From an uncultured Syntrophaceae bacterium (GTDB lineage Bacteria; Desulfobacterota; Syntrophia; Syntrophales; UBA8958), in NCBI GenBank assembly GCA_964645835.1, contig CAZYDG010000043.1:9063-73062 (forward strand): a DNA stretch of 64,000 nucleotides, given 5' to 3'. Positions 36,190-51,037 of this stretch are shown piece by piece (the stretch's first letter is position 1; each line of letters opens with the position of its first letter). Below the pieces are notes generated by a model. The model saw only the letters and a list, made by a program, of their open reading frames with translations, had not been told where the DNA came from and made no database searches. A program made the position numbers and the translations under genes.

Positions 36190-36234
36190 ACAAAATCGAA
36201 TTTTTAACAACCTGCTAGACTTAGGGTTTATTTT

Positions 36235-37311
36235 ATGATCACCACTGTAATTCCAACTTTTCAGCGTCCTTTGTTGCTGAAACGGGCGATTGAGAGTGCC
36301 TTAGCCCAATCGTTCGGCGATATACAAATTTGTGTACATGATAATGCGTCCCAGGATGAAACGGAGTCGGTTGTTCGTGATTATGCACGTTTGGACAAGC
36401 GGGTTTTTTACTTCAGGAACCCCGTCAATATCGGACCGGTAAGGAACATGATCCAAGGCGTCAATGCTGTAGAGACGCCATACTACTCCCTCCTTAATGA
36501 TGACGATTTTTTGCTGCCCGGTTTTTACGAGCATGCCATTGGCGGTTTTAACCGCCATCCGGATGCCTGGATATCCTGTGCGAAGACCATGACGCTGAAC
36601 GTCATCGATGGGCAATTCGAACTTCGGAACCGGGACTGGGCGGCCGGTTTCTATCGACCAAGCATTGAAATACTTAATAAAATGTATAGTTCCCACTTTG
36701 TGCCGACCTCCGTTTTGTTCAGGCGGGATGTCAGGGACCACCTCGGGGCATTCGAGGCATCGGGAAGCGATTCTCTCTATTTAACGATAGCCTCCGCCAT
36801 ACTGCCTTTTGTTGTTGTCGATTACTATGGTGGTGCCGTCACCTTACACCGGCAGGCCTACTCCATGATCGGTGAGGGGATTAACAAAGAGGGCATCGGG
36901 GTGCTGAACGAGCATCTATTGGAGAGTCTGGGCGTCGTAATGAGAGCGGCTATCGATCCCGATCTGAAAGTCAATCTGCTCATGCTGGTCATTAATGCCT
37001 ATCATCAGATCTACGATTCGAAGCGCTTGGGGTATTTACTGGGCAACCACGATGAGGCGAATATCGGTAATCTGTTCATGCTTCCCTCGTTGATTACGAA
37101 TAGAGGGTTGGTGGCAAAATTTTATCGTGCCGTTCCTGACGGCTTCAAACCGATGGTCAAAATACTGTATGAAAAAACCTCTCTTGCAAGACAGAGGAGG
37201 CAAACGATATCAAATGCCAGTTGGATGCCCTTGCCTGACGATATTAAGGCCGGGTTGGAGCGATCTGATATCGATGTGTCCAAAATCGCGTCGCTAGCCG
37301 GTATCAAATAA
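36235..37311 (+). CDS. Glycosyltransferase family 2
   Basis: 358 aa. Contains ITTVIPTFQRP.LL.RAI.SAL.Q and LNDDD. Confidence 0.8.
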   Translation: MITTVIPTFQRPLLLKRAIESALAQSFGDIQICVHDNASQDETESVVRDYARLDKRVFYFRNPVNIGPVRNMIQGVNAVETPYYSLLNDDDFLLPGFYEHAIGGFNRHPDAWISCAKTMTLNVIDGQFELRNRDWAAGFYRPSIEILNKMYSSHFVPTSVLFRRDVRDHLGAFEASGSDSLYLTIASAILPFVVVDYYGGAVTLHRQAYSMIGEGINKEGIGVLNEHLLESLGVVMRAAIDPDLKVNLLMLVINAYHQIYDSKRLGYLLGNHDEANIGNLFMLPSLITNRGLVAKFYRAVPDGFKPMVKILYEKTSLARQRRQTISNASWMPLPDDIKAGLERSDIDVSKIASLAGIK

Positions 37312-37347
37312 AGTAAATCATTCAAAAGAAGATGAATTCGTAAAAAG

Positions 37348-37430
37348 TCGTCACACCGGTGAAAACCGGTGTCCAGTGTTTGTGTAACGCATTGAAATAT
37401 CTGGATTCCGGTCTTCACCGGAATGACGAT
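37348..37430. repeat. Double-hairpin palindromic element, copy 2
   Basis: GTCGTCACACCGGTGAAAACCGGTGTCCAG, a 25-nt spacer, then CTGGATTCCGGTCTTCACCGGAATGACGAT. The arms are mutual inverted repeats. Confidence 0.65.
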
Positions 37431-37452
37431 TCTTGAACATTTTTAGCTTTTT

Positions 37453-38148
37453 ATGAGAACATTAAAGAAAGTATCAAGAATAATGAGGCTTAGCAAAGAA
37501 ATCGAATTACGTATCGGTAGCTCGGAAGATTTAGCACGGTATGTTTTATATCAGTTACGTATTTTTATGCCAGCTGATCAAGATGAAGGTTTTGAAACAA
37601 TAAATCGCTATTTACCCGGAACCTTAAAACGAATGGCACCTATTTTGGCATGCGCCAAACATTTTCAGCCCGGAATTTTCGATCATCTTAATTCACAGCA
37701 GTATGCCATGTTTTTATATTTACTGGCCAATGAAATCTGGACAAATGATGAAAGCAGTTGGGTAGTATGTGAGAAACTCTTTTTTTTGAATAGAATATTT
37801 TCCGGAATGGATCTGTACTACAAAATAAATATGCCGGAGATTTTCCTGATCGAGCATGGTGGCGGATCTGTTCTTGTAAATACGCATTATGGAAATAAAT
37901 TTGTATTTTTTCAGTCCGTAACGGTTGGCCGGCTGGGGGATGCATGCCCTGTTATTGGAGAGGGTGTTATACTTTTTCCTAATACCGTCGTTACCGGAGA
38001 GTCCATCATTGGTGATTATTCCGTAATATCCGCCGGCACAATAGTTAATAATAAAATTATTCCGCCAGACTCAGTCGTGTTTTCCAATGGATCCGATATC
38101 GTTATCAAGGACAGGAAAAAAGATTATTTATCTTATTATTTTAGATAG
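37453..38148 (+). CDS. Hexapeptide-repeat (left-handed beta-helix) acyltransferase-like protein
   Basis: 231 aa. The C-terminal half has [LIV]-G-x4 hexapeptide periodicity (VIGEGVILFPNTVVTGESIIGDYSVISAGTIV). The N-terminal half resembles the serine-acetyltransferase-like helical domain. A/T-rich gene. Confidence 0.55.
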   Translation: MRTLKKVSRIMRLSKEIELRIGSSEDLARYVLYQLRIFMPADQDEGFETINRYLPGTLKRMAPILACAKHFQPGIFDHLNSQQYAMFLYLLANEIWTNDESSWVVCEKLFFLNRIFSGMDLYYKINMPEIFLIEHGGGSVLVNTHYGNKFVFFQSVTVGRLGDACPVIGEGVILFPNTVVTGESIIGDYSVISAGTIVNNKIIPPDSVVFSNGSDIVIKDRKKDYLSYYFR

Positions 38149-38202
38149 CATGATGTCGACGGGAACAATGACGCTATTGGACAGCTGATTGTGGGCGATT
38201 AC

Positions 38203-39123
38203 ATGGGATCGGAGCTTGTAAGCATCATCATTCCGGCCTTTAATCATGGACGATATCTCAGGCAGGCCATTGACAGTGTGCTGATGCAGGACTATCCGAA
38301 CATTGAATTGATCGTTCTGGATGACGGTTCAACTGATAATACCAGAGCGGTCCTTGAAAGTTACGGAGATGCCTTTTATTGGGAGACGCATCCGAACATG
38401 GGTCAGGCAAACACCCTTAACAAGGGGTGGCAACAGGCAAAGGGGTCGATTTTATCTTACCTCAGCGCCGATGACATTCTGATGCCCGATGCGGTCAGTT
38501 CATCTCTGGCGTATTTAAAGGGTGATATTGTCTTGACGTATGGCGATTTCAATCTTATCGATCCCTCATCGAAGATCATCCGGCAAGTAGCGGCGCCGGA
38601 GTTTAGCTATCTTGAAATGTTCTGCAAGTTCATTTGCCAGCCCGGCCCCGGGGTCTTTATGACCCGCCGGGCTTACGAAGCGGCGGGCGGCTGGGATAGC
38701 ACATTGAAGCAAATGCCCGACCATGAGTATTGGTTGCGGCTTGGGCTTGTCGGCCCATTTGTCAGGGTTCCGAAAGTACTTGCCGCATTTCGCGTGCACG
38801 ACGATTCGCTAACCTATTCGATTTCCGACACGCATAGAGCGGAAGAGCCGTTGCGGGTGATCCATAAGTTTATTGAAAGCCATGAACTACCACTGGAATT
38901 AATTGCCGTGAAACATGTTGCGATCAGCAGTGCCTGGCTTTTCACGGCGCAATTGCATATTCGCTCGGGTCGCTTTAAAGAGGGGTTTGCCGCATTGTGG
39001 CACTCATCCACGATATCACCTGGTAATTTCTTTTCTCTACGCACTTTTCGGATTCTTTTAAATAGTTTTTTAAATCGATGTTTTCACCGGATCATGCGAT
39101 TAAAAAACCGACTTGGAAATTGA
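38203..39123 (+). CDS. Glycosyltransferase family 2
   Basis: Contains VSIIIPAFNHGRYL.QAIDSVL.Q, LDDGSTD and SADD. The ATG 38203 start is preferred over GTG 38191. Confidence 0.85.
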   Translation: MGSELVSIIIPAFNHGRYLRQAIDSVLMQDYPNIELIVLDDGSTDNTRAVLESYGDAFYWETHPNMGQANTLNKGWQQAKGSILSYLSADDILMPDAVSSSLAYLKGDIVLTYGDFNLIDPSSKIIRQVAAPEFSYLEMFCKFICQPGPGVFMTRRAYEAAGGWDSTLKQMPDHEYWLRLGLVGPFVRVPKVLAAFRVHDDSLTYSISDTHRAEEPLRVIHKFIESHELPLELIAVKHVAISSAWLFTAQLHIRSGRFKEGFAALWHSSTISPGNFFSLRTFRILLNSFLNRCFHRIMRLKNRLGN

Positions 39124-39442: not shown

Positions 39443-39498
39443 TGTAACTCAGAGGGCGGAGCTGTATCTTGAAAGGGATCATGATTTTTCAGTGCTCT
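39443..39498 (+). promoter_or_regulatory. Conserved leader motif (ops/JUMPstart-like), T2SS-like operon copy
   Basis: TGTAACTCAGAGGGCGGAGCTGTATCTTGA (39443-39472) plus TTTTTCAGTGCTCT (39485-39498). Lies 25-80 nt upstream of the gspG ATG. Confidence 0.45.
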
Positions 39499-39522: not shown

Positions 39523-39924
39523 ATGAAAGAGACAAAACAAAGACATAGGCAGGGGGGCTTCACACTTATTGAAATCCTGATCGTGGTCATTATCATCGGG
39601 CTCATTGCCTCTCTTGTGGCGCCGAACCTGATCGGCCGGTATGAACGGTCGAAGGAAGAAATTGCCAAGGCCCAGGTAGAAATGCTCTCGTCGGGCGTCA
39701 TGTCCTTTAAGCTGGATATGAACCGTTATCCGACCAGCTTTGATGAACTGGTTAAATCGACGGATGCGAAGTGGCGCGGCCCTTACCTTTCCAAGCAAAC
39801 CATCCCGCAAGACCCATGGGGGAGGGACTACGTATATAAAGTCCCCGGCGATCACGGGCCGTTTGATATCTATTCTCTGGGTGACAGCGGAAAACTGGAC
39901 GATAAATCGCCCAGGAACTGGTAA
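39523..39924 (+). CDS. gspG: Type II secretion major pseudopilin GspG
   Basis: 133 aa. Prepilin leader and cleavage site QGG/FTLIEILIVV. The C-terminus DPWGR.Y.Y..PG.HG.FD..SLG.DG is GspG-specific. Confidence 0.9.
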   Translation: MKETKQRHRQGGFTLIEILIVVIIIGLIASLVAPNLIGRYERSKEEIAKAQVEMLSSGVMSFKLDMNRYPTSFDELVKSTDAKWRGPYLSKQTIPQDPWGRDYVYKVPGDHGPFDIYSLGDSGKLDDKSPRNW

Positions 39925-39926
39925 GC

Positions 39927-41603
39927 ATGTCTTTCGAACAGATTTTAAAAGACAGCTACGGCGTCACGGAAGATGACTTCAACAAGGCGCTGAAGCTTCA
40001 AACCGAAATGGGCGGTCAGATTGGCCGCATCCTGGTCCAGGTCGGGTCTATTACGTATACCCAGTTGATGGAGGCGCTAGCTAAGAGCATGAATGTGCCA
40101 CTCTTTAGCGGCGACTGGGAACAGAACGGTGACTTGATCACCTTCCTCGATGGTCATCTAAACTATGGATATCTCCTGCGCAACAACGTTTTGCCTATCG
40201 GTATAGACCATGAACACAAGGTGTTATCTGTTGTAACCGACGATCCCTTCAATACATCCATTTCAGATTATATAGTAAACAATCTCGGCTACCGCGTGGC
40301 CATATCACTGGCGACGGAAGATACGATCAAGGACCTGTCCAAAGACTATACGGATGGACAAACGGGGGAATTCGTATCCCTCGAGTTTGAGGAAGATGCC
40401 GCGAAGCTCAAGGAGATGGCCTTTGAAGCCCCGGTGATCAAATTTCTCAATAATCTGATCAGTAAGGCAGTTGAAATCAGGGCTTCCGATATCCATCTGG
40501 AATCGTCGGAACGCAGATACCGTGTTCGCTTCAGGATCGACGGTATTCTCCAGGATATCGAATTTCTTGATGAGCAATTTTTCCTGGCAACCGTTTCGCG
40601 TATCAAACTCCTTGCCAGTCTCGATATCGCGGAAAAAAGATTGCCCCAGGATGGCAAATTTACGACCAAGATCGCTTCCCTGCTGTTGGATATCCGTGTT
40701 TCCACCATGCCCACCATCAGTGGCGGCGGCGTCGTGATGAGACTCCTGTATCGGGAGAAGATTTCTTTCGATCTTGAATACCTGGGGCTTGATGTGGATC
40801 ACAAGGAGTTGGTGGTCAACCTCATTTCACGTTCGTATGGCATGCTTCTCGTCACGGGTCCGACCGGTTCGGGCAAGACGACCACCCTCTATTCGATGCT
40901 TACGCGTTTGAACGATCCGGAACGAAAGATCATTACCATCGAGGACCCCGTCGAATATCAATTGGAAGGGATCAATCAGATCCAGACAAAAAGCGAGATC
41001 GGGCTCACATTTGCCAGCGCTCTGCGTTCCATCCTGAGACACGATCCCGATATTATCATGGTCGGCGAGATCCGGGACAGGGAAACGGCAGAAATATCCA
41101 TTCAGTCTGCTTTGACGGGACATTTCGTTTTTTCCACACTCCATACGAACGATGCACCGAGTAGTCTGTTTCGGCTCGTAGAAATGGGTGTGGCTGATTA
41201 TCTCCTCAATGCGGCGGTAGTCGGCGTGATGGCCCAACGAATCGTAAGAAAAAATTGCCCCTTTTGCCTGGAGCCGGAAGCCTTGCCCGACATCCTCTTG
41301 GAAGAATACGCCTTTAATGAGATTGTCGCTAAATATTCGAACCTTGCGCCGGAAGGATTGAAGGCAATGAAGGGAAAAGGGTGCTCAAAATGTGCGGGTA
41401 CGGGTTATAAAGGCCGAATCGCTATCTTTGAAATATTTGAATATAAGGAAGAACTCAAGCAGGTCTTTCTGAAGAGATTGTCCCTTGAGGATATGAGGGT
41501 CGCGTTGCATGCAGACGGTAATTATCGAACCCTCCGGGAAGACGGAATCCTTAAAGTGGCAAAGGGTCTGACGACACTGGAAGAGGTATTGCGCGTATGC
41601 TGA
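39927..41603 (+). CDS. gspE: GspE/PilB-family secretion ATPase
   Basis: 558 aa. Walker A VTGPTGSGKTTT, Asp/His boxes, and a tetracysteine CPFC...CSKCAGTG. Confidence 0.92.
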   Translation: MSFEQILKDSYGVTEDDFNKALKLQTEMGGQIGRILVQVGSITYTQLMEALAKSMNVPLFSGDWEQNGDLITFLDGHLNYGYLLRNNVLPIGIDHEHKVLSVVTDDPFNTSISDYIVNNLGYRVAISLATEDTIKDLSKDYTDGQTGEFVSLEFEEDAAKLKEMAFEAPVIKFLNNLISKAVEIRASDIHLESSERRYRVRFRIDGILQDIEFLDEQFFLATVSRIKLLASLDIAEKRLPQDGKFTTKIASLLLDIRVSTMPTISGGGVVMRLLYREKISFDLEYLGLDVDHKELVVNLISRSYGMLLVTGPTGSGKTTTLYSMLTRLNDPERKIITIEDPVEYQLEGINQIQTKSEIGLTFASALRSILRHDPDIIMVGEIRDRETAEISIQSALTGHFVFSTLHTNDAPSSLFRLVEMGVADYLLNAAVVGVMAQRIVRKNCPFCLEPEALPDILLEEYAFNEIVAKYSNLAPEGLKAMKGKGCSKCAGTGYKGRIAIFEIFEYKEELKQVFLKRLSLEDMRVALHADGNYRTLREDGILKVAKGLTTLEEVLRVC

Positions 41604-42802
41604 GCCTCTTTGCCTATAAGGCCCTGGATGCTTCCGGCCAGGAAAATAAAGGGACGATCAGTGCGGCAAATTCGTCCGAAGCGGTGCTGGCACTCAGGTC
41701 ACGGGGACTTGTTGTCATTGATCTCAACGAACGAAGAGAGATGACCAAGAAAGGGATTCGTTTTGCCAGGCGCTTCGGCCAACAGGACCTTTACAGTGTC
41801 GCCAGGGAATTGAGCACCCTGCTTCGATCCGGCATGCGGATCGACAAATCTCTTGAAATCTTGATCTCAGCAACATCGAAACAAGACCTGAAACAGGTTC
41901 TTGAAGGGATTTTGACGGATATAAAGGCCGGCCGGGATGTGGCTGAAGCCTTCGGACGAACGGGACGGTTCAGTTCTTTCCTGGTCAGCATGATCCACGT
42001 CGGCGAGGCCGTTGGGGCGCTTCAGCCCGCATTTGAAAATATCGCCCAATATCTTCGTTTCCAGATTCAGTTCAAATCGGAGATTCGGGGGGCGCTGACC
42101 TATCCAGTTTTTCTGATCTTTGCCAGTATCCTGACATTTGTAGTCATCTTCAATTTTATCGTTCCAAGATTTTTCAGCATCTTCGGTACGAACCTGACCA
42201 GCCTGCCCCTGCCGGCCAAAATTCTCTATACCTTAAGCGGGTGGTTGAGTTTCAGAAATATCGCCATTTGCCTGGCCGTGGCGGCACTCGTCGTATTTGC
42301 CAATAAAATGAATCCGACAAAATTCAAATTGCCCAACTGGTCCTCTTATCTGATCCGTATTCCCATGATGGGGAATCTCATTTTAAACCTGGAACTGTCG
42401 CGATTTTCCTATTCCATGTATTCTATCCTCTCGAGCGGTGTGACCTTTATTCAGGCACTAAGCTTGTCCGCTTCCCTGATACAGAATGAACATCTTCGGC
42501 ATCCGATAACATCCCTTGTCGGCCAGATCAAGGAAGGCAAGAAGATTTCCGATGTTTTCATGCAGGTCAATATACTTCCGGATATATACCCCAATATGAT
42601 AATGGTCGGCGAAGAGAGCGGCAACCTCAAAGATATCTTCTTTGAACTTTATCAGATTTTCGATGAGCGCTTCAAGAACAGCATCAAGATGGTTTTGACG
42701 CTTGTAGAGCCTATAATTATTCTGTTGATGGGACTACTCGTCGGCTTTATCGTCATTACGCTGATTCTGACCGTTATGAGCGTCAGCAGCATTAAATTGT
42801 AA
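41597..42802 (+). CDS. gspF: GspF/PilC-family inner-membrane platform protein
   Basis: 401 aa. Two repeated T2SSF-type domains and 3 TM segments. Overlaps the gspE stop. Confidence 0.9.
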   Translation: MLSLFAYKALDASGQENKGTISAANSSEAVLALRSRGLVVIDLNERREMTKKGIRFARRFGQQDLYSVARELSTLLRSGMRIDKSLEILISATSKQDLKQVLEGILTDIKAGRDVAEAFGRTGRFSSFLVSMIHVGEAVGALQPAFENIAQYLRFQIQFKSEIRGALTYPVFLIFASILTFVVIFNFIVPRFFSIFGTNLTSLPLPAKILYTLSGWLSFRNIAICLAVAALVVFANKMNPTKFKLPNWSSYLIRIPMMGNLILNLELSRFSYSMYSILSSGVTFIQALSLSASLIQNEHLRHPITSLVGQIKEGKKISDVFMQVNILPDIYPNMIMVGEESGNLKDIFFELYQIFDERFKNSIKMVLTLVEPIIILLMGLLVGFIVITLILTVMSVSSIKL

Positions 42803-42827
42803 AATAATCCCTATGATCGGGAGCAAG

Positions 42828-43229
42828 ATGACAGAGAAAGGGTTCAGTCTGATCGAACTGCTTTTGGTTGTCTCTATCATCGGGTTGATGTTTTCGGTTG
42901 CCCTTCCTGTTTCGTTCAATATGTACAGCAACTATAAGGCCTCAATTAAGGCCCAGGAAATAATGGTTTATACATCCGGTATACGGCGGGAAGCCTTTCT
43001 TTACAGCGAAAGAAAAGTGTTGTCTTCAAAAGACAATGTCATGACCGTGAACAGCGAGAAAAAGAATTTTGATAATGTAAAGGTGCAGATCAGCTCTCCC
43101 ATAGAATTCTTCCGAAATGGGACGACCAATGGGGGGATGATTAAGATCGTGGTCGATGACCAGATTTATCAATTGAATGTCCTACCTCCAGTGGGAGATC
43201 TTGCCCTTTCGAGAGGCGATGGCTCTTAA
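42828..43229 (+). CDS. Minor pseudopilin (GspH-like)
   Basis: Prepilin N-terminus MTEKG/FSLIELLLVVSIIGL. The ATG 42828 start follows GGGAG. The track start at 42813 lacks an RBS. Confidence 0.7.
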   Translation: MTEKGFSLIELLLVVSIIGLMFSVALPVSFNMYSNYKASIKAQEIMVYTSGIRREAFLYSERKVLSSKDNVMTVNSEKKNFDNVKVQISSPIEFFRNGTTNGGMIKIVVDDQIYQLNVLPPVGDLALSRGDGS

Positions 43230-43647
43230 CTCAAACGGCAGGAAGGGTTTTCTCGTCCTGGAGATTCTGATTGCCGGTCTTATCCTTACCTCGAGTATCG
43301 CGGCGACCATGTACATGTTTCATATGGGGAGCCTGTATCTTGATAAGGTGAATCAATCGAATATGCTGTCGTCAAAGCTTATTCAGGTAAGCAACATTTT
43401 CAAGGTTGTGCCCCTCGAAAACAGTTCGGGTACGGAAGACATGGGTGATGGGGTCCTCATGACATGGAAGTCGCAACTGATCTCATCGGCCAAACCACAG
43501 ATTGGCGAGGGTGAAGATGCCTTGCCTTCCCTGCATGAACTCATGCTGTACCTGGTGAGTTTTGATCTTGCCTATCAAGGCAATACAAGAAGCTATCAGA
43601 TCAATGTCTTTCGCTATAAACCATTGTCATCGGGGGAAACCGACTAG
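43219..43647 (+). CDS. Minor pseudopilin-like protein (GspI position)
   Basis: Start reset to ATG 43219, giving MALNSNGRKG/FLVLEILIAGLIL, with Glu at +5 after Gly-Phe. Confidence 0.55.
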   Translation: MALNSNGRKGFLVLEILIAGLILTSSIAATMYMFHMGSLYLDKVNQSNMLSSKLIQVSNIFKVVPLENSSGTEDMGDGVLMTWKSQLISSAKPQIGEGEDALPSLHELMLYLVSFDLAYQGNTRSYQINVFRYKPLSSGETD

Positions 43648-44299
43648 GGGCTATACCCTGGTTGAGGTCATGGTGGCTATGGTCATTCTGACGTCCATGC
43701 TGTTCCTGGGCGGCATGGCCATTAATCAAGGGCTCCGTCAGTACCATGGCCTCGTGGAGCAAGGCCTCAATTTCTGGGAATATGCAAAAACGCTATGGAT
43801 CGACAAGAGTTGCAACTCGGCAACGGACTATTACGTGTATACGAGAAGCGATGGATGGTTCCCCTACTTCAAAGGCGATCAGGAAGGGCTTTCGTTTGTC
43901 TCCTTGGCGCCTTTTGCAAACGATACGCCAGTTGCTATTTGGATAAGAAACGTTTCTGAAAAAGATGGATCTCGTTCGCTTGTATATTACGAATTGCCCG
44001 TTTATACGAAAACTTATGAAGATTTAGACCGGGACTATGTCTTCGGCGATTATAAAAAAGGAAGATCTTACAAGATTCTGGAAAATTTCAGCGCCATCGA
44101 ATTCAGCTTCTATGGTTATGATGTGCAGACAGGAAAAACCGTCTGGTCCAATCAATATGAGGGCAAGGCTATGAAACGGCTGCCTTCTTTAGTCAAAATT
44201 TCCTATCGGCATCACAAAACCGGCAAGGGGGTCTTGCTGTTAAGCATGAATGTTAATGCGCTCTTGAAAGCCGGTTATAATGAAGCCTATGTCAGATAG
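43604..44299 (+). CDS. Minor pseudopilin-like protein (GspJ position)
   Basis: Start reset to ATG 43604, giving ...KPTRG/YTLVEVMVAMVIL. About 230 aa, as for GspJ. Confidence 0.55.
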   Translation: MSFAINHCHRGKPTRGYTLVEVMVAMVILTSMLFLGGMAINQGLRQYHGLVEQGLNFWEYAKTLWIDKSCNSATDYYVYTRSDGWFPYFKGDQEGLSFVSLAPFANDTPVAIWIRNVSEKDGSRSLVYYELPVYTKTYEDLDRDYVFGDYKKGRSYKILENFSAIEFSFYGYDVQTGKTVWSNQYEGKAMKRLPSLVKISYRHHKTGKGVLLLSMNVNALLKAGYNEAYVR

Positions 44300-45218
44300 G
44301 CAAGGCTCCGTTACGATTTTGATTATGCTGATCGCCGCTGTTCTGATCACGGTGGGATTGGGATTCAACTGGTTGGTAAAAGAGCACGTCAGTTCTTCCG
44401 AGGGGTTAAAGAGCAAGGCTGAGGCAATTATCAAGGCCCGGTCGACTTTTGATACTGTTATCTTTTTGATCCTAACAGGCCGGGTACTGGCGAAAGAAGT
44501 GGCTACACCGGGGGGTGAATCTATCGCAGGGATAGTCACTCTGCCCCTTAACGGACAATTGGTAAAACTGGGGGAAGGAGTCAGTGTTCGAATTCAGGAG
44601 AGTAATGGTGCTATCTCCCTGTGGCATACAACCAGCCTAGAGAATAAAGCTGCTTTAGAGCGGTTGATTCAGCTATATGCCAAAGATCGCGACCATGATC
44701 AAAATCCTGCAGACAATTTATGGGACTGGATCGATGAGGATGATCTAGCCCGGACCAACGGTGCAGAAGCGGCTTATTATAAAGGAAAGGGATTGCATTA
44801 CGTGCCCAGGAATTATGCCCTCCAATCATTGGACGAACTTAAATTAATAAAAGGCTTTGACGAAAGCTTGCTTGACAAACTGGATAAAAGTTTGACTCTT
44901 CTACCCAAGACGGGTTTCAATCCGAATACGGCTTCGGACGATGTATTAATGGCCTATCTGAAATTTGACGAGCAAGCGATGAAGACTATGAAAGAGTATT
45001 TGGCCGATAAGCCAGTTTCATCGGATCGTGAGATGCTCTCTTTGACGGGGCAGAGCATTACAAAGGATGTGGATGCGATCTACTTTAGGCCATCACCCTA
45101 TATGGATGTGACAATTGATGTGGGAACACCTCGAAAAGTTTACAGTATCAAGGCCGGCTTGTTTATCGCCCAGAAAAAATACGCACCCTACAGTGTGTTA
45201 TCGTGGAAAGAGGAATAG
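44280..45218 (+). CDS. gspK: GspK-like pseudopilus tip protein
   Basis: 312 aa. N-terminal hydrophobic segment GSVTILIMLIAAVLI without Glu5. Contains DWIDEDD...NGAE..YY and L.S..EL.LIKG, hallmarks of T2SSK. Confidence 0.75.
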   Translation: MKPMSDRQGSVTILIMLIAAVLITVGLGFNWLVKEHVSSSEGLKSKAEAIIKARSTFDTVIFLILTGRVLAKEVATPGGESIAGIVTLPLNGQLVKLGEGVSVRIQESNGAISLWHTTSLENKAALERLIQLYAKDRDHDQNPADNLWDWIDEDDLARTNGAEAAYYKGKGLHYVPRNYALQSLDELKLIKGFDESLLDKLDKSLTLLPKTGFNPNTASDDVLMAYLKFDEQAMKTMKEYLADKPVSSDREMLSLTGQSITKDVDAIYFRPSPYMDVTIDVGTPRKVYSIKAGLFIAQKKYAPYSVLSWKEE

Positions 45219-45225
45219 GCGGGAT

Positions 45226-46428
45226 ATGGGGATGATGATTGCATACTGGGATAGGGAAAGACTTGATATTTACCGTATCGTCAACAAACGGCCGGTCAGA
45301 TTTGCAGCTGGAAGTCTCGACAAGCTAACTCCCGTTAGGAAGGTTGCCGATAAAAAGATCTTGATTATCGGCAGGGATCGTCTTGTTCACCTGAAAAAAA
45401 GATACCCCCCGGCGCCTGAAGAGACTTTGCGAAAGGCAGTCGATCTGGAAATCGGGGAACTGGTCCCGCTGACCCATCCGGCCTGTCATTGCCGAATCTT
45501 TGAATCATACGGCACCCATATCATGCTGGATATATGGGCATGGGAAACTGATCAATATGCCCGCCTGAATGAGGTTTTCCCTTTCAACGCTGTCGTTCCG
45601 GAGGATATTCTCTTTTCGTCTGCCAATCCTGAGATGTCGATTTATCATCATCAGGGTGCCGTTAATATGCTTGTTCACGGTCAAGGGAAATTCTTTGCCG
45701 GCGCTACGTTCCCCACGGAAACGTTCAGTCAGGGCGACATGGACCGGTTTATCGAAGGGCTCGCCCAGTACCGGGTCGATATAACAAAAATCAAGATATA
45801 TGGAACATTGCCTTTTTCGCTGGCTGGTCGACAACTTCCGGAAATCGCCAATGTTTCTGCTCCTGCGTATCCTCCATGTCTGGACTATTTTGATTTATTG
45901 GACCTGAAAAAGTTCCGCGTAAGGCGTGATTACCATTTTTTAGAGAAAAAAGATTTCATATTAAGACTCTTCATATATCTGATTCTAGGTTATGTCCTCA
46001 TGCTCTACCTTACCATGAGAAACTATGATGAAGTCTCCTCCGCCATCAAGTTGAAACTCAATCTTCTGGATCGGCAGGTATCGGCCTTGACGATAGACCG
46101 CGGTGAGACGGCAGACAGTCAAGATACCCTCGTCAAGGAACTCAATGAGAAGATATCCTCAAGGCAATCCGCCCTCTCCGCCATGACGGTATTGGCCCGG
46201 AGGCTTCCCAAGGGCAGTTTCGTTACACGAATGGTTTTCAATGGGAACAATACGGATATTTCTTTGTCTTCAAAAGAGCCCTTGGCTGTTCTTCGATTAT
46301 TGGGGAATGCACCGGAGATTAAAAAGGTCAGCATGAAGGGGCCGCCGGTTAAAGATCGAAGCACGGCTTCATACAATTTCAACATGACCATCGAGTTTAT
46401 CCGGTTGCCTGGTAGCGAGTCGATATGA
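45226..46428 (+). CDS. GspL-like assembly protein (PilM-like cytoplasmic domain + TM + PilN-like periplasmic domain)
   Basis: Start reset to ATG 45226, after the gspK stop. A single TM segment ILRLFIYLILGYVLMLYL lies at about residue 245. The call rests on architecture and position, not on recognised motifs. Confidence 0.45.
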   Translation: MGMMIAYWDRERLDIYRIVNKRPVRFAAGSLDKLTPVRKVADKKILIIGRDRLVHLKKRYPPAPEETLRKAVDLEIGELVPLTHPACHCRIFESYGTHIMLDIWAWETDQYARLNEVFPFNAVVPEDILFSSANPEMSIYHHQGAVNMLVHGQGKFFAGATFPTETFSQGDMDRFIEGLAQYRVDITKIKIYGTLPFSLAGRQLPEIANVSAPAYPPCLDYFDLLDLKKFRVRRDYHFLEKKDFILRLFIYLILGYVLMLYLTMRNYDEVSSAIKLKLNLLDRQVSALTIDRGETADSQDTLVKELNEKISSRQSALSAMTVLARRLPKGSFVTRMVFNGNNTDISLSSKEPLAVLRLLGNAPEIKKVSMKGPPVKDRSTASYNFNMTIEFIRLPGSESI

Positions 46429-46979
46429 TCAATATTATTCCCCAGAAAGATTTGAAGACCATCGGTATCTATCTTATCGTTGCTTTGGCGCTGATCCGAT
46501 TCCTGGTCTATCCCCTTTATGCATCCGTCGACGGGCGGAAGAAGAGCCTTGCCGAGCAATATGAAAACTATCAAGTTAAGGTTGCGCTACTCGAGAGGCA
46601 AATTGCGGAAAGGCAAAAAAATGAACATAATGCCAAGTCACCGGTCTCTGATCCCAAGGTGATCTTATCAAAATACTATGATAAGAATATCAAATTCCCT
46701 AATATCCAAGCGGATCTGATCGAATCGCTCATCAAAATATCCGAAAAGAAAGGTATGACCGTCATTGATTTCGAATTGTTGGAGCCGGTTGCAGGTCCAA
46801 ATATCAGCGAGATACCTGTGTTGATCAGGATCAGCGGTCAGTCGGGTGCTTTTGTGGACGTTCTCAGGGAGATAGAACGAAGTGACAAGGTCTTGGTGGT
46901 AAAATCGATGGAGATTAATAAAATTGGAGCGGAATTCCGCTTTTTCTTGACCTTGTCGTCTTTCCGGATAGAGAAATGA
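46425..46979 (+). CDS. GspM/PilO-like bitopic protein
   Basis: 184 aa with an N-terminal TM (IGIYLIVALALIRFLVY) followed by a coiled segment. ATGA start/stop overlaps on both sides. Confidence 0.45.
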   Translation: MINIIPQKDLKTIGIYLIVALALIRFLVYPLYASVDGRKKSLAEQYENYQVKVALLERQIAERQKNEHNAKSPVSDPKVILSKYYDKNIKFPNIQADLIESLIKISEKKGMTVIDFELLEPVAGPNISEIPVLIRISGQSGAFVDVLREIERSDKVLVVKSMEINKIGAEFRFFLTLSSFRIEK

Positions 46980-47713
46980 TTAAAAAGTTTTTACCGGATG
47001 TCTCGGGCCTTATATTCATCGCCGTTGTGGCCTTTCTTGTTGCAAGCAAGCCAGGTATCAATCTGACGGTAAAAGCAAAGGCTGTTCCGCAACAGATAAA
47101 GAACACTTCTGTTCCGGTTGCCGTGCCTCCAAAGAACATAGCGGTCTCATCGTCCTCATCGCCTCAGGAGGCGCTGCTTGAAAGGAATATTTTTGCCGAA
47201 AGCGGGAGCTATGCCATCGATGCCAAAGCAAAGCCGGTTTTGCCGGAAATCCCTTATCAGCTCATTGCCATTCTTAATGGAAAAGAAAACAAAGCGGTCT
47301 TCAGGGAGTATACCGGTGCCATTATCAACATGACCACGGGTAAAAAAATGATTGATGATTATGTTATCATTACGATAAATAATACGTCCGTTGAACTTCA
47401 AAGGGGGAAAGAAAAGAAGGGATTGCAATTGTTTAATGCCGCAGTCAGCCATCAACCGGCGAAGGCAATGGAACAGCATAAAAACAAGACTCTTTCTCCC
47501 GTAATATACACATTGATCGGCATCCTGGGTGGCCAGGAGAAAAAGGCCGTTTTGCGCAGTGCCAATGGAGTCGTTTCCATTATGCCGGTTGGGGGAATGC
47601 TCGGTGATGGTTCCGTTATTTCCGTTATTACGCCTCTTTCAGTGAAACTCAAGCAAGGGAAGAAAGAAACGGAGTTGAAAATGTTCGATGCCACCAGGAC
47701 GATGGGACGATGA
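46976..47713 (+). CDS. GspC/PilP-like protein with two tandem HR-like domains
   Basis: 245 aa with an N-terminal TM. There is an internal duplication: residues ~93-153 (YQLIAILNGKENKAVFRE...VELQRGKEKKGLQLF) versus ~177-237 (YTLIGILGGQEKKAVLRS...VKLKQGKKETELKMF). Confidence 0.5.
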   Translation: MIKKFLPDVSGLIFIAVVAFLVASKPGINLTVKAKAVPQQIKNTSVPVAVPPKNIAVSSSSSPQEALLERNIFAESGSYAIDAKAKPVLPEIPYQLIAILNGKENKAVFREYTGAIINMTTGKKMIDDYVIITINNTSVELQRGKEKKGLQLFNAAVSHQPAKAMEQHKNKTLSPVIYTLIGILGGQEKKAVLRSANGVVSIMPVGGMLGDGSVISVITPLSVKLKQGKKETELKMFDATRTMGR

Positions 47714-47717
47714 AAGT

Positions 47718-48944
47718 ATGCGTTATTTTGATAGTGTACCGATACTGATGGCCACCATTATGGCTATCATGTTGCTCACTGCAAGCAGCGCAGAATCGGC
47801 TGATGTGTACGTTTTTACCGATGGGGGGGAGACCACCTATTATACGAATATGCCTGGGCCGGGGCGTGTCAAGGTGAAATTGCCTCTTGTAAAACCTAAA
47901 GTCAAAGCAGTGGGATCAGCGCGTTCGGTGATAATTCGTGACCGGAAAGACTATGAACCTGTTATTACTGATGTGGAAAATAGGAGAAAAAAAGTAGCGA
48001 ATATTGTTTTTTCATTTTACATTCGAAGGATTTTTAGAATTATCCCAGCTGCAATTTTTTGTATAGTTATTTCCCTATCTTTGTCCTGGGTATCTGGTCA
48101 GGGATCAGTTTTTGGGAACATGGATATCAATCTGACCTCAGTTTTTTCGATTCTTACATTGCATTATAATATTTTGCTGGCTTTGGATTGGCCTAGCCGT
48201 ATCCATTGGCAAACCTTTGGTTTTTTTTGGAGTTTAATGGTTGAAGAACAGTTTTATCTGCTCTTTCCATTTCTTCTATTGGCTTTTCGAACCGTGCAGA
48301 AGAAAGTAGCTATCTTGACGATCCTATTGCTACTAGCACTAGTGCTACAAATCATTGTCGGAATGCACAACAACGTTATATTGTATAAATTATTTCGTTT
48401 CGATGGATTAATGATTGGCGTTTTGTTGTATTTTTTTACTAAGAGCAGATTTTATCAAGCATTTGATATCTTTAAGTTTAAAAATACATTTACGTCTCTT
48501 ACCTATAACCTGATGTTGCTGAGCCTTTTACTTTTTGTCCAAGGCATGCATGAAATTTCCTTCCATCCATTTTTGTCCGCAATTCTTTCTGGTGTTTTTG
48601 TGCTTGCTGCAACGTATCAGCATGATAGCATTTTCCCTCTAAAGCCGTTCGCGTCGATGCTGACTTGGGCCGGTAACAGGTCTTATAGTCTATATTTGCT
48701 TCATAGCCTTGCACTTAGCATTACTGTGACCTTATGGGATTTTTATGCACATCAGGTTGGAAAGGTTTTGGGTTCCGGGGATGAAATTATGATGGCTTTG
48801 ACTTCTATTATTATTATTCTAATCTTGGTTGAGTTTTCTTACAGGGTTATTGAGCGTCCGTTGATAAAATTTGGCAAGTTTGTTTCCGATAGAGTGGAGT
48901 CACCAGTAAGTGTTTCGCTAGCGATGCACAGACCTTTCCCTTAG
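47718..48944 (+). pseudogene. Chimeric ORF: DUF4124/lytic-transglycosylase N-terminus fused to an N-terminally truncated acyltransferase-3
   Basis: Residues 1-85 give a signal peptide, ADVYVFTDGGETTYYTN (DUF4124-like) and RDRKDYEPVITD. From about residue 98, FYIRRIFRIIPAAIF and 7-8 TM segments belong to acyltransferase_3, but the first part carrying the conserved His/FFxxSG is missing. There is a sharp shift to A/T-rich sequence at about 47970. Confidence 0.5.
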
Positions 48945-49147: not shown

Positions 49148-50047
49148 ATGATGACATTATCAAAAACAACATCCATGAAAGGCATCATACTCGCGGGTGG
49201 TTCGGGCACAAGGCTTTATCCAATAACATCATCCGTATCAAAGCAGCTTCTTCCCGTTTTTGACAAACCCATGATTTACTATCCCCTGTCTATCCTGATG
49301 CTGGCCGGGATTCGGCAGATTCTCATCATATCAACGCCCCGGGATTTGCCTTTTTACAAGGAATTATTCAATGATGGCAACCACCTGGGGTTGTCAATTT
49401 CCTACGCTGAACAACCCCATCCCGGTGGTTTGGCCCAGGCGTTCATTATTGGCGACTCCTTCATCGGAAAGGACAATGTCTGTCTGGTTTTGGGAGACAA
49501 TATCTTCCATGGCTATGGCCTGTCGGCGTTGCTGGAGAAGGCGGGCGCCCTTTCAGACGGCGCCCTTGTCTTCGGTTATTGGGTGAAAGACCCGGAACGC
49601 TACGGTGTTGTGTCTTTTGATGAACAAGGGAAGGCGGAGAGTCTGGAAGAAAAACCGGCAAAGCCAAAGTCCAATTATGCCGTGGTCGGCCTTTATTTTT
49701 ATGATAACGACGTGATTGAAGTTGCGAAAAATCTTAAGCCTTCCGCCCGTGGCGAACTGGAGATTACAGATGTCAACAAGGAATATCTGAAGCGGGGCAA
49801 ACTGCAGGTCGAGATCCTGGGCCGCGGTATGGCATGGTTGGATACGGGCACCCATGAAAGCCTTCTGGAAGCGGGCAATTTCATAGCCACTATCGAACAC
49901 CGCCAAGGGCTCAAAGTCGCCTGCCTGGAAGAAATTGCCTACAGTAAGGGCTACATCACGAAGAAGCAATTGCTTGCCCTGGCAGAACCTCTGGCAAAAA
50001 ACCAATATGGTGAATACCTGATCGGTCTTGTTGAGCATAAACGATAA
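49148..50047 (+). CDS. rfbA: Glucose-1-phosphate thymidylyltransferase
   Basis: Contains [18 protein letters not shown]....[23 protein letters not shown]. The start is either 49148 or 49175. Confidence 0.92.
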
Positions 50048-50054: not shown

Positions 50055-51037
50055 GTGCATGTGGTAACAGTCGTCATCGTCAACTGGAATGGCCTGAAAT
50101 TTATTTCTGAATGTCTGGATGGCCTTCAGCGGCAAGCCTTCCAGCCCTTTTCAGTGATAATGGTTGACAATGCTTCCCAGGATGGGTCCGTAGATTTAGT
50201 CAAAAAAACTATCCCGATGTTCGGGTCATTGCTTTAAATACTAATGTCGGATTTGCTGCGGCCAATAATGTCGCCCTTCGGTCCGTCGAAACTCCTTATG
50301 TTGCACTTCTGAACAATGATGCCGTTCCCGATCCTCAGTGGCTGCAACGACTGGTGGATGCCTTGGAGACCCATCCCGAAGCAGGCTTTGCCGCCTCGAA
50401 GATGCTTTTTTATGACACACCGGATATCATCGATCGGGCCGGTGATGCATATACCACAGCAGGAACGGCCCTTCTAAAGGGAAGAGGATGCTCGGCTGAG
50501 GATTATAGCTGTCGCGCCTGGGTCTTTGGTGCCTGTGCGGGCGCGGCGCTATATCGGATGGCCATGCTTTGGGATACGGGGCTCTTCGAAGAAGACTTTT
50601 TCCTGCTTTATGAGGATGTGGATCTGAGTTTCCGGGCCCAACTCAAAGGATATAAATGCTTGTATGTGCCGGAGGCAAAGGTCCATCACAAGGGGAGCGG
50701 CAGTATCGTCCACGATTCGCCCATATCGGTGTACTATAGCCATCGGAACCTGGAGTGGGTTTACATCCGGAACATGCCCGGCGGGTTGATTGTCCGGTCC
50801 ATGTTTTCCCATTTTATCTATGACTTTGTTGCCTTTGTTTATTTTGTGATGAGTGGACGGGGTGTTGATTTTATGCGGGCGAAGCGTGATGCCGTGAAGG
50901 GCTTAAGGCAGGCCTGGCAGGATCGAAAGCGCATTCAGGCTGGTAAGATTGTTACCGATGAGTACATATGGAGGTTGTTGGAAAGGCCCATGCTGTTTAG
51001 TCGTTTGATGAACCGTTTCGGGATGCTGAAATTCTGA
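50055..51037 (+). pseudogene. Glycosyltransferase family 2, reading frame broken at an A7 tract
   Basis: Frame 0 (VTVVIVNWNG...VDNASQDGSVDLVKK) stops at 50235-50237. The continuation NYPDVRVIALNTNVGFAAANN...YEDVDLSFR is in the -1 frame, starting inside AAAAAAA at 50202-50208. Confidence 0.8.

What the first reader, a model, noticed from the sequence alone, without database searches (positions are those of the whole stretch)
39523..47713. Complete-looking T2SS-like pseudopilus operon without secretin or prepilin peptidase, embedded in a polysaccharide locus
Ten co-directional genes, mostly with start/stop overlaps. They encode GspG, GspE, GspF, three prepilin-type minor pseudopilins, GspK, and GspL-, GspM- and GspC-like proteins.

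Unusual points:
1. The gene order G-E-F-H-I-J-K-L-M-C differs from the canonical C-D-E-F-G...O order.
2. There is no GspD secretin and no GspO/PilD peptidase anywhere in the 64 kb.
3. Glycosyltransferase genes flank the operon on both sides.
4. It shares a leader motif with an EPS operon.

Inference: either the secretin and peptidase are encoded elsewhere, or this is a pseudopilus machine functionally tied to surface-glycan or sheath biogenesis rather than classical protein secretion.
Basis: partly seen in the sequence, partly recalled or inferred. Interest (0 to 1): 0.68.

Follow-up and report, generated by a model that had tools for sequence, protein, structure and literature searches.

The report
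Secretion operon missing its pore gene
This is an ordinary type II protein-secretion gene cluster from a bacterium that lives inside an amoeba; its outer-membrane pore gene was removed by a deletion that left a visible scar, so it is not a new kind of sugar-export machine.

Summary
Window 39523-47713 carries ten intact co-directional genes, gspG-E-F-H-I-J-K-L-M-C. The 64 kb contain no secretin and no prepilin peptidase. Polysaccharide genes flank the operon, and an exact 17-nt leader motif is shared with an upstream EPS module.

The source is Ca. Syntrophus pelomyxae (Syntrophus sp. SKADARSKE-3), a cytosolic endosymbiont of the amoeba Pelomyxa schiedti.

The G-E-F...C order is the norm for this Syntrophales-type T2SS. 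In 45 of 46 evaluable orthologous operons, including the two closest relatives (GspE 84% and 80% identical), gspC is followed directly by a lytic transglycosylase gene (slt) and/or gspD.

Here the next ORF (47688-48944) is a chimera. About 73 residues of the slt N-terminus are fused in frame to an acyltransferase that lacks its first ~75-85 residues. This is a deletion scar.

A prepilin peptidase and two other secretins are annotated elsewhere in the genome. gspG, E, H, I, J and K are transcribed.

The link to EPS genes is real but regulatory and positional. A MarR_EPS regulator gene followed by a conserved ~25-nt element precedes gspG in several relatives. In this window the element is duplicated around an inserted 8-kb EPS module.

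Verdict: a known kind of system, recently orphaned of its secretin. Moderate interest.

The parts
30596..30985 (+). MarR-family EPS-associated transcriptional regulator (MarR_EPS)
   Evidence: TIGR04176 136.7 bits (cutoff 88). A 60%-identical homologue lies directly upstream of the gsp operon in L006. Homologues also precede gspG in L094, L095, L097, L140 and L164.
31021..31050 (+). Conserved cis element, copy 1 (TGTAATCCAAAGGGCGGAGCTGTATCTGGA), in the leader of the EPS module
   Evidence: The same element follows MarR_EPS in six relatives.
31111..39123 (+). 8-kb EPS module lying between MarR_EPS and gspG: DegT aminotransferase, C-methyltransferase, epimerase, Wzx flippase, GT2, hexapeptide transferase, GT2
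   Evidence: Pfam. The module is absent from the syntenic position in L006 and in L094, L095, L097 and L164.
39443..39472 (+). Conserved cis element, copy 2, about 55-70 nt upstream of the gspG ATG
   Evidence: An element 47-333 nt upstream of gspG occurs in 9 of 36 loci, counting this window.
39523..39924 (+). gspG major pseudopilin (CSYNP_00044)
   Evidence: TIGR01710 above cutoff. Leader QGG/FTLIE. Expression 829 in Dataset 4.
39927..41603 (+). gspE ATPase with an MshEN-type N-terminal region (CSYNP_00045)
   Evidence: Walker A and the four-Cys motif are invariant in alignment A3. Expression 205.
41597..42802 (+). gspF inner-membrane platform
   Evidence: Pfam T2SSF with two matched stretches; TIGR02120 4e-84.
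42828..43229 (+). gspH-like minor pseudopilin (CSYNP_00047)
   Evidence: N_methyl plus weak GspH/ComGD hits. Leader KG/FSLIE.
43177..43647 (+). gspI-like minor pseudopilin (CSYNP_00048)
   Evidence: No HMM hit. It has the prepilin leader KG/FLVLE and sits in the conserved position.
43604..44299 (+). gspJ-like minor pseudopilin (CSYNP_00049)
   Evidence: N_methyl; weak GspJ hit NF006453. Leader RG/YTLVE.
44289..45218 (+). gspK tip pseudopilin (CSYNP_00050)
   Evidence: Pfam T2SSK_1st 66.6 bits; NF037980 2e-21. Leader lacks Glu5.
45232..46428 (+). gspL (CSYNP_00051)
   Evidence: AF2 model with pLDDT 86: actin-like N-domain, long helix, then an alpha/beta C-terminal domain. Foldseek top hits are GspL 4pht, EpsL 1yf5, PulL 5tkw and PilM.
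46425..46979 (+). gspM
   Evidence: Pfam T2SSM_b 22.4 bits (cutoff 21.7); NF040576 3e-9.
46976..47713 (+). gspC-like protein: N-terminal TM segment plus two HR/PilP-like repeats
   Evidence: Weak hits only: GspC_delta 4e-8, PilP 1e-3, PDB GspC 7oio E 0.28. A profile search of PDB was negative. The position between gspM and slt/gspD is conserved in all relatives.
47688..48944 (+). Deletion scar: a chimeric ORF. Residues 24-96 (nt 47757-47975) are the N-terminus of the operon's lytic transglycosylase (slt). From about residue 100 it is an Acyl_transf_3 protein lacking its first ~75-85 residues.
   Evidence: tblastn and blastp against relatives' SLT: 1e-8 and 3e-13. Pfam matches profile positions 68-319 of 326 only. 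In the best 150 representatives (listed apart from the self-hit), the homologues align query ~100-405 to their residues ~75-385, and none shares the SLT part.
49148..50047 (+). rmlA (glucose-1-phosphate thymidylyltransferase, CSYNP_00055)
   Evidence: Pfam NTP_transferase 1.5e-75. Expression 166.
50079..51037 (+). GT2 glycosyltransferase pseudogene, frameshifted near 50204-50210
   Evidence: tblastn with the L011 GT2: residues 27-68 and 71-343 match in two different frames.

Best explanation
WHAT IT IS. This is the Syntrophales-type type II secretion operon of Ca. Syntrophus pelomyxae. Its ancestral form is gspG-E-F-H-I-J-K-L-M-C-(slt)-gspD.

WHAT HAPPENED. In this endosymbiont a deletion or replacement removed the catalytic part of slt, all of gspD, and the 5' end of a neighbouring acyltransferase gene. 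The event occurred at the edge of a hypervariable surface-glycan locus. It left an in-frame slt'-'acyltransferase chimera.

WHAT REMAINS (shown). The remaining ten genes are intact, and six of them are detectably transcribed. The five pseudopilins carry prepilin leaders, so they need a peptidase that is encoded elsewhere.

PRESENT STATE (inferred). The inner-membrane platform, the ATPase and the pseudopilus can still assemble, but they lack their cognate outer-membrane channel. The system is therefore a recently orphaned T2SS. It is either idle and at the start of decay, or working through a non-cognate secretin.

EPS EMBEDDING (partly shown). The embedding is positional and regulatory. In this subclade the operon sits next to a variable glycan locus. 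It lies behind a MarR_EPS regulator gene and a conserved ~25-nt promoter/operator-like element. Insertion of an 8-kb EPS module duplicated that element.
For: SOURCE. NCBI GCA_030920355.1, contig JARLUC010000001.1. The organism is a cytosolic endosymbiont with a 4.97-Mb genome that is 97.4% complete (PMC10579272).

SECRETIN IN RELATIVES.
- S. gentianae...C-SLT-secretin.
- JGI contig: same order.
- GCA_017973795.1 (GspE 84% identical)...C-secretin.
- GCA_041642995.1 (80%)...C-SLT-secretin.
- L011, L012 and L013 also carry it.
- HMM annotation of 80 further loci gives 45 of 46 evaluable operons with a secretin.

DELETION SCAR..

COGNATE SECRETIN NOT FOUND. No secretin remnant in the window. No SKADARSKE-3 protein among the top 120 GspD homologues.

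REMAINING GENES.
- All ten have orthologue-like lengths and no stops.
- GspE catalytic motifs are conserved.
- Transcription: gspG 829, E 205, H 235, I 634, J 550, K 209.

ELSEWHERE IN THE GENOME. A peptidase and other secretins are annotated.

LOCAL DECAY AND GENOME INSTABILITY. A frameshifted GT2 and a pstC with an in-frame TGA lie just downstream. The genome carries many IS transposases.

SYNTENY AND REGULATION.
- AMP-ligase-YtfJ-[glycan genes]-MarR_EPS-element-gsp is shared with L006.
- MarR_EPS exceeds the TIGR04176 cutoff.
- The element is conserved after MarR_EPS and before gspG in relatives.
Against: - The assembly comes from MDA-amplified single-cell libraries, and MDA chimeras can create false junctions. 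No independent assembly of this junction exists in the searchable collections.
- I could not search the whole genome directly. Absence of a relocated gspD rests on a top-120 list and on names in a truncated supplementary table.
- Ten intact genes (8.2 kb) lie beside three lesions in the next ~5.4 kb. With gspG well expressed, this argues against simple decay and for continued use.
- One relative (L105) also lacks a secretin after slt, so adjacency is not absolute.
- gspF, L, M and C are below the stored part of the expression table, i.e. under 56.8.
Confidence: 0.72

Rival explanations
1. Same origin (cognate gspD deleted), but the system is still a working T2SS. It has been rewired to a non-cognate secretin: the 834-aa secretin CSYNP_02537 of a second T2SS-like cluster, or PilQ. 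It uses the shared prepilin peptidase.
For: - All ten genes are intact, while two point lesions and the deletion lie in the adjacent ~5.4 kb.
- gspG, I and J are well expressed.
- Two other secretins and a peptidase are annotated and expressed.
- The GspC-like protein keeps both HR/PilP-like repeats.
- From my own knowledge: P. aeruginosa XqhA can substitute for XcpQ, and PilD/XcpA serves both T4P and T2SS.
Against: - From general knowledge, GspC-secretin contacts are usually system-specific.
- The relative-rate test shows a slight acceleration of the window lineage: 152 versus 118 unique changes, mostly in I, J and K.
- gspL, M and C transcripts are below the stored range.
- The sequence of the other secretins could not be obtained.
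Confidence: 0.3
2. The missing secretin is an assembly artefact. A chimeric MDA fragment or a SPAdes misjoin fused slt to an unrelated acyltransferase, and the real genome has slt-gspD here.
For: - The genome was assembled from MDA single-cell libraries, with 7.4% estimated contamination.
- Only one contig carries the junction.
Against: - A displaced slt-gspD fragment should still appear as a contig and as an annotated protein in a 97.4%-complete assembly. None is among the 120 closest GspD homologues.
- The junction is in frame.
- The contig is 914 kb.
- No repeat lies at the junction.
- Further lesions just downstream suggest genuine local decay.
Confidence: 0.1
3. One reading: a dedicated secretin-less pseudopilus machine that acts in surface-glycan or sheath biogenesis rather than in protein secretion.
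For: - The operon is embedded in a ~40-kb glycan locus.
- It shares a cis element with an EPS module.
- EPS-type genes and MarR_EPS lie next to the operon in ~11 of ~26 relatives.
- Pseudopilin-dependent polysaccharide secretion has a named precedent in the cyanobacterial Hps proteins (NCBIfam NF038304, listed).
Against: - The orthologous operons are complete T2SS with secretins in 45 of 46 cases.
- The secretin-less state is a lineage-specific deletion with a scar.
- The HpsC model scores 15 bits against a cutoff of 200.
- About 15 of ~26 relatives, S. gentianae among them, have no glycan genes nearby.
Confidence: 0.04

Closest known systems
Orthologous Syntrophales/Desulfobacterota T2SS operon gspGEFHIJKLMC-slt-gspD (e.g. 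Syntrophus gentianae FOBS01000040; GCA_017973795.1; GCA_041642995.1)
   Same: Same ten genes in the same order. Identities are 56-85% to the closest relative, per gene, for the nine genes that could be compared. The GspE has the same MshEN-type N-terminus. Part of the clade has the same upstream MarR_EPS gene and cis element.
   Different: The window lacks the slt catalytic domain and the whole secretin gene. An 8-kb EPS module sits between MarR_EPS and gspG. Glycan-gene remnants replace the 3' end.
Canonical proteobacterial T2SS (Gsp/Eps/Pul/Xcp)
   Same: ATPase E; platform F, L, M and C; major pseudopilin G; minor pseudopilins H, I, J and K. GspL fold confirmed.
   Different: The gene order starts with G-E-F. 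There is no PDZ domain in GspC; instead it has two HR-like repeats. There is no GspN, O, A or B. A dedicated lytic transglycosylase precedes gspD in relatives. No secretin is present here.
Pseudomonas aeruginosa Xcp system, with shared peptidase PilD/XcpA and alternative secretin XqhA (my own knowledge, not tested here)
   Same: The peptidase is encoded outside the T2SS cluster and shared with type IV pili. It is a precedent for a T2SS working with a non-cognate secretin.
   Different: Xcp retains its own secretin XcpQ. Here the cognate secretin is gone, and any substitution is hypothetical.
Cyanobacterial Hps pseudopilins for hormogonium polysaccharide secretion (NCBIfam NF038304 HpsC)
   Same: Prepilin-type proteins encoded with polysaccharide genes.
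   Different: No significant similarity: 15 bits against a cutoff of 200. The present operon has the T2SS-specific K, L, M and C components and secretin-bearing orthologues.
ComG competence pseudopilus of monoderm bacteria
   Same: A naturally secretin-less G/E/F/pseudopilin machine.
   Different: ComG models score far below the Gsp models. ComG lacks GspK, L, M and C. The host here is diderm (PilQ, Tol-Pal and a Blc outer-membrane lipoprotein appear in the table excerpts).

Membership tests
Type II secretion system (T2SS) | GspE-family secretion ATPase | tested here: met
   Pfam T2SSE 1.1e-129. TIGR02533 517 bits, below the equivalog cutoff of 630 but the best-scoring family. Walker A and Zn-Cys motifs conserved.
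Type II secretion system (T2SS) | GspF polytopic platform protein | tested here: met
   Pfam T2SSF with two matched stretches (165 bits); TIGR02120 4e-84.
Type II secretion system (T2SS) | Major pseudopilin GspG with a prepilin leader | tested here: met
   TIGR01710 116.8 bits (cutoff 88.85). Leader G/FTLIE.
Type II secretion system (T2SS) | Minor pseudopilin set H-I-J-K, with GspK lacking Glu5 | tested here: met
   GspK: T2SSK_1st above cutoff. H, I and J have prepilin leaders; H and J have weak family hits, I has none. K leader is G/SVTIL.
Type II secretion system (T2SS) | Assembly-platform proteins GspL and GspM | tested here: met
   GspL by fold: Foldseek 4e-9 to 4pht GspL, model pLDDT 86. 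GspM: T2SSM_b just above cutoff.
Type II secretion system (T2SS) | GspC, linking the platform to the secretin through an HR domain | tested here: inconclusive
   GspC_delta 33 bits (cutoff 150), PilP 1e-3, PDB 7oio E 0.28. The profile search against PDB was negative. Position is conserved and two HR-like repeats are visible.
Type II secretion system (T2SS) | Dedicated outer-membrane secretin GspD | tested here: not met
   Absent from the window. No close GspD from this genome in the top 120 homologues. Present in 45 of 46 orthologous operons. Other secretins are annotated elsewhere in the genome.
Type II secretion system (T2SS) | Prepilin peptidase (GspO/PilD, peptidase A24) | tested here: not met
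   Not in the window (Pfam). One gene, CSYNP_02982 'outO', is annotated elsewhere in the genome according to PMC10579272 Dataset 4. I did not examine its sequence.
Type II secretion system (T2SS) | Secretion of folded periplasmic substrates across the outer membrane | not testable with these tools
   There are only candidate cargo genes next to gspG in relatives: a CFI-box-CTERM beta-propeller in L006 and a VPLPA/PEP-CTERM protein in S. gentianae.
Hps-type pseudopilin-dependent polysaccharide secretion | Homology to the HpsB/C/D pseudopilins | tested here: not met
   NF038304 HpsC: E 0.013, 15 bits against a cutoff of 200, limited to the shared N-terminal helix.
ComG competence pseudopilus | ComGA/GB/GC-GG set without K/L/M/C | tested here: not met
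   ComG models score below their cutoffs and below the Gsp models. GspK, L and M are present.
MarR_EPS-regulated EPS locus (TIGR04176) | MarR-family EPS-associated regulator encoded in the locus | tested here: met
   Window 30596-30985: 136.7 bits (cutoff 88). Binding to the conserved element was not tested.

The most novel reading that the evidence does not exclude
After losing its own secretin, this cytosolic amoeba endosymbiont has kept the T2SS inner-membrane platform and pseudopilus under selection. The machine would be co-regulated with a newly inserted surface-glycan module through a duplicated MarR_EPS-associated cis element. It would work either through a borrowed secretin or in a secretin-independent, envelope-directed role. 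That would be a natural example of T2SS rewiring during the transition to intracellular life.
Probability: 0.15. Interest if true: 0.65.

Novelty: new member of a known kind. Interest (0 to 1): 0.34.

Why it matters
1. It explains an apparently exotic 'secretin-less T2SS in a glycan locus' as a datable deletion with a molecular scar. This is a caution against reading new function into incomplete systems found in MAGs or single-cell genomes.

2. It adds a concrete case of early erosion, or rewiring, of an envelope machine. The host is a large-genome (about 5 Mb), IS-rich, recently host-restricted endosymbiont of an anaerobic amoeba. The published analysis of this symbiont does not mention secretion in its main text.

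3. It exposes a clade-wide operon architecture: G-E-F first, with a dedicated lytic transglycosylase before gspD.

4. It exposes a strongly conserved ~25-nt element tied to a MarR_EPS regulator. This makes co-regulation of exopolysaccharide and T2SS cargo in Syntrophales directly testable.

Tried and rejected
- Genome-contig scan with a GspE alignment. The patterns were too generic.
- Sequence-only PDB searches of the L-like and C-like proteins, and a C-like profile, gave nothing significant. L was resolved by structure prediction.
- Rfam on the window and on five relatives found no family for the leader element. RNAalifold gave only a weak hairpin of -3 kcal/mol, so I dropped a structured-RNA reading.
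- The ops/JUMPStart-like idea (GGCGGAGC versus GGCGGTAGC) remains untested. No NusG paralogue is in the window, and only the housekeeping nusG appears in the stored part of the annotation table.
- Search for an independent assembly of the junction found only the one NCBI contig.
- P0122, a 79%-identical secretin, was checked as a possible missing gene of this organism. It belongs to a close relative of L007, not to this genome.
- The relative-rate test for relaxed selection showed only a mild, topology-dependent acceleration. It is not decisive.
- Downstream synteny of relatives against the window found no shared genes, so the deleted interval cannot be sized beyond about 2.7 kb at minimum.
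- The transporter at 51125-54756, which I first took for sulfate uptake, is Pst (phosphate).

Full report
OBSERVATION

Window 39523-47713 holds ten co-directional ORFs separated by a few bases or overlapping. HMM searches identify most of them:
- GspG: TIGR01710 116.8 bits, cutoff 88.85.
- GspE: Pfam T2SSE 1e-129, with an MshEN-type N-terminal region.
- GspF: T2SSF, two matched stretches.
- GspH-like and GspJ-like prepilin-type proteins.
- GspK: T2SSK_1st 66.6 bits.
- GspM: T2SSM_b, just above cutoff.
- GspC-like: weakly supported (GspC_delta 4e-8, PilP 1e-3).

The ORF without any hit (43177-43647) carries a clear prepilin leader, KG/FLVLE. G, H and J have classical leaders. K lacks Glu5, as GspK proteins do.

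The 398-aa L-like protein has no sequence hit. An AlphaFold model built on 38 homologues (pLDDT 86) has an actin-like N-domain, a long helix and an alpha/beta C-terminal domain. Its best structural matches are the cytoplasmic domains of GspL, EpsL and PulL, followed by PilM.

Pfam scans of essentially every ORF of 110 aa or more in the 64 kb show no secretin and no A24 peptidase. tblastn with three orthologous secretins finds no remnant.

Polysaccharide genes occupy the window from about 10.9 kb to 51 kb and again from 58.2 to 62.7 kb.

The shared leader motif is real. An exact 17-mer lies at 31031-31047, ahead of the DegT-Wzx-GT2 module. The same 17-mer lies at 39453-39469, ahead of gspG.

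SOURCE ORGANISM

GspE is identical to a protein of NCBI assembly GCA_030920355.1, contig JARLUC010000001.1 (914,784 bp), named Syntrophus sp. SKADARSKE-3. SKADARSKE is the strain of the anaerobic amoeba Pelomyxa schiedti. The bacterium is Candidatus Syntrophus pelomyxae, a rod living free in the amoeba's cytosol.

Its genome is 4.97 Mb in 84 scaffolds, 97.4% complete with 7.4% contamination. It was assembled with SPAdes from MDA single-cell libraries (PMC10579272). The main text of that paper does not mention secretion systems.

WHAT RELATIVES SHOW

I looked up the gene neighbourhoods of GspE orthologues:
- Syntrophus gentianae (GspE 69% identical): G-E-F-H-I-J-K-L-M-C, then a lytic transglycosylase (Pfam SLT), then a 704-aa secretin.
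- A JGI contig (67%): the same, flanked by a Wzx flippase and a Wzy_C protein.
- The closest relative, GCA_017973795.1 (84%)...M-C-secretin.
- The next closest, GCA_041642995.1 (80%)...M-C-SLT-secretin on one contig. On another contig it has AMP-ligase, YtfJ, Wzy_C, GT2, GT2, GT9, a wHTH regulator, a beta-propeller gene, then gspG-E-F.
- Three more contigs agree. One has a circularly permuted order, H...C-SLT-D-G-E-F.

A metagenome scan with the clade-specific GspL alignment returned 80 further loci. I annotated them, together with seven relatives fetched earlier, using HMMs built from the relatives. Of 46 operons with enough sequence beyond gspC or slt, 45 carry a secretin immediately downstream. 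The one exception is L105.

The order G-E-F...C-(slt)-D is therefore the clade's norm. The secretin is an ancestral member of this operon.

THE SCAR

In the window, gspC is followed by ORF 47688-48944, which overlaps its stop.
- Residues 24-96 are homologous to the N-terminal region of the relatives' SLT proteins: blastp 3e-13 to L009, tblastn 1e-8 to L004. In L105's SLT a shorter stretch of the N-terminus (residues 15-44) scores as DUF4124.
- The SLT catalytic domain is absent.
- From about residue 100 the ORF is an Acyl_transf_3 protein. Pfam matches only profile positions 68-319 of 326.
- A full HMMER search of 1.84 billion representatives aligned acyltransferase homologues (mostly about 370-410 aa) from their residues ~75-85 onward. 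Among the best 150 listed, none apart from the self-hit shares the SLT-like N-terminus.

The ORF is thus an in-frame fusion of slt' and 'acyltransferase. This is what a deletion would leave if it removed the rest of slt, gspD, any genes in between, and the 5' end of the acyltransferase gene.

By general knowledge of the AT3 family, the missing first transmembrane segment carries essential catalytic residues. The chimera is therefore probably inactive (inference).

Two more lesions lie just downstream:
- A GT2 gene is frameshifted near 50204-50210.
- pstC has an in-frame TGA at 52484-52486.

The genome also carries many IS transposases. This fits a recently host-restricted, rearranging genome.

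IS THE SECRETIN ELSEWHERE?

A search with the closest relative's GspD listed 120 homologues, all at least 47% identical. None is from SKADARSKE-3, although this genome's proteins are named in that database. The two nearest hits belong to other organisms.

The paper's Dataset 4, stored only for the ~2000 most expressed genes, annotates the following elsewhere in the genome:
- a prepilin peptidase (CSYNP_02982);
- pilQ (CSYNP_00388);
- two pilT genes;
- a PilC/GspF paralogue;
- a 2505-nt secretin (CSYNP_02537) three genes from a second gspG-like gene and next to an IS481 transposase.

An out-of-operon, shared peptidase is commonplace. The cognate secretin appears lost, but non-cognate secretins exist.

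STATE OF THE REMAINING GENES

All ten ORFs are full length relative to orthologues. GspE keeps its Walker A and four-Cys motifs.

Expression values in symbiosis are gspG 829, gspE 205, H 235, I 634, J 550 and K 209. gspF, L, M, C and the chimera are below the stored threshold of 56.8.

A relative-rate test shows only a slight excess of changes on the window lineage: 152 versus 118, mostly in I, J and K.

These data do not distinguish a very recent orphan at the start of decay from a system kept in use with another secretin. Ten intact genes beside three lesions lean mildly toward continued use.

THE EPS CONNECTION

The wHTH gene at 30596-30985 is a MarR-family EPS-associated regulator (TIGR04176, 136.7 bits, cutoff 88).

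The AMP-ligase and YtfJ genes at 7963-10161 are syntenic with L006. The interval between YtfJ and gspG is about 7 kb there and about 29 kb here. The gsp operon therefore sits at the edge of a variable glycan locus.

In L006 and in five metagenomic loci, MarR_EPS lies directly upstream of the gsp operon with GT2 or Wzy genes beyond it. Other EPS-type genes lie upstream in five more loci. That is about 11 of ~26 loci with enough upstream sequence.

About 60-85 nt after the MarR_EPS stop codon, and 47-333 nt before gspG, lies the element (A/T)TGTAAnnnAGAGRGCGGAGCTGTAT.
- It is conserved almost base for base in loci whose GspL proteins are only about 50% identical, while its flanks are not conserved.
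- It has no Rfam family and no convincing RNA structure.
- It can be read as a sigma-70-like promoter (TTGTAA, 17 nt, TATCTn) with a conserved spacer, as the MarR_EPS operator, or, less likely, as an ops-like site. This was not resolved.

In the window the element occurs twice, bracketing the 8-kb module 31111-39123. No relative has this module at that position. The simplest reading is that insertion of the module duplicated the leader.

So the shared motif reflects common regulation of EPS genes and a T2SS, not a glycan-exporting pseudopilus.

T2SS are known to deliver surface proteins carrying C-terminal sorting tags (GlyGly-CTERM, MYXO-CTERM; bioRxiv 10.1101/2023.06.07.544157). Relatives have a CFI-box-CTERM beta-propeller gene co-oriented with gspG, and a VPLPA/PEP-CTERM gene just upstream. 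Both are plausible cargo (inference).

VERDICT

The finding is a real, well-described feature, but its oddities have ordinary explanations.
- It is a member of a clade-specific but conventional T2SS family.
- It has lost slt-gspD by a deletion that left a chimeric ORF.
- It relies on a peptidase encoded elsewhere.
- It neighbours EPS genes for positional and regulatory reasons.

The main caveat is the MDA single-cell assembly. I estimate about 10% for an artefactual junction.

Three points remain mildly interesting: the orphaned yet intact and transcribed state in an amoeba endosymbiont, the dedicated transglycosylase, and the conserved MarR_EPS-linked element.

Noticed in passing
window 36047-36193, 61356-61481, 62686-62811 (partial copy 30247-30289): A ~140-nt intergenic repeat family (71-91% identical) sits between polysaccharide genes: after Wzx, after CapD-like, and after wecB. 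No Rfam match. They could be REP/MITE-like elements or recombination points of the glycan locus.
   Followed up: partly
window 52139-53059: pstC of a pstSCAB phosphate transporter (51125-54756) is interrupted by an in-frame TGA at 52484-52486. It is either a pseudogene or a sequencing error.
   Followed up: partly
window 50079-51037: A GT2 glycosyltransferase is split by a frameshift near 50204-50210. Together with the slt'-'AT3 chimera, this gives three lesions within about 5.4 kb downstream of gspC.
   Followed up: partly
window 54758-57594, 14960-16882, 16883-17935: Sulfate-activation genes (CysD-like PAPS_reduct-fold protein and CysN/APS kinase fusion), a carbamoyltransferase and a full-length AT3 acyltransferase lie inside the glycan locus. 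This suggests a heavily decorated (sulfated, carbamoylated, acylated) surface polysaccharide in a cytosolic endosymbiont.
   Followed up: no
window 39942-40085 (GspE residues 6-53): The GspE N-terminus resembles the MshEN c-di-GMP-binding motif (NF053729, 35.2 bits; cutoff 38), but the key Arg and Gln positions are substituted. Possible c-di-GMP control shared with EPS production. The Pfam MshEN domain is conserved across the clade.
   Followed up: no
L006 7957-9600; L002 8463-9083: In relatives, the gene just before gspG encodes a secreted-type protein with a C-terminal sorting tag: a CFI-box-CTERM beta-propeller in L006 and a VPLPA/PEP-CTERM protein in S. gentianae. These are candidate T2SS cargo.
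   Followed up: partly
L105 4061-7080: This is the only relative of 46 in which slt is not followed by a secretin. About 1.6 kb of AT-rich, ORF-poor sequence follows instead. It is either a second independent loss or a chimeric metagenome contig.
   Followed up: partly
L012, L158, L160, L161, L162: A subclade has the operon circularly permuted: H-I-J-K-L-M-C-slt-D-G-E-F.
   Followed up: no
elsewhere in the genome (CSYNP_02534-02541; PMC10579272 Dataset 4): A second T2SS-like cluster has an 834-aa secretin (labelled sctC) and a gspG-like gene (xcpT), adjacent to an IS481 transposase. Both are expressed (123 and 111). The sequence was not retrievable with these tools.
   Followed up: partly
L140 3238 and 3744; L121 20546; L006 3098: Extra copies of the GCGGAGCTGTA element occur: two between MarR_EPS and gspG in L140, and others ahead of unrelated genes. 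The element may define a small regulon.
   Followed up: no
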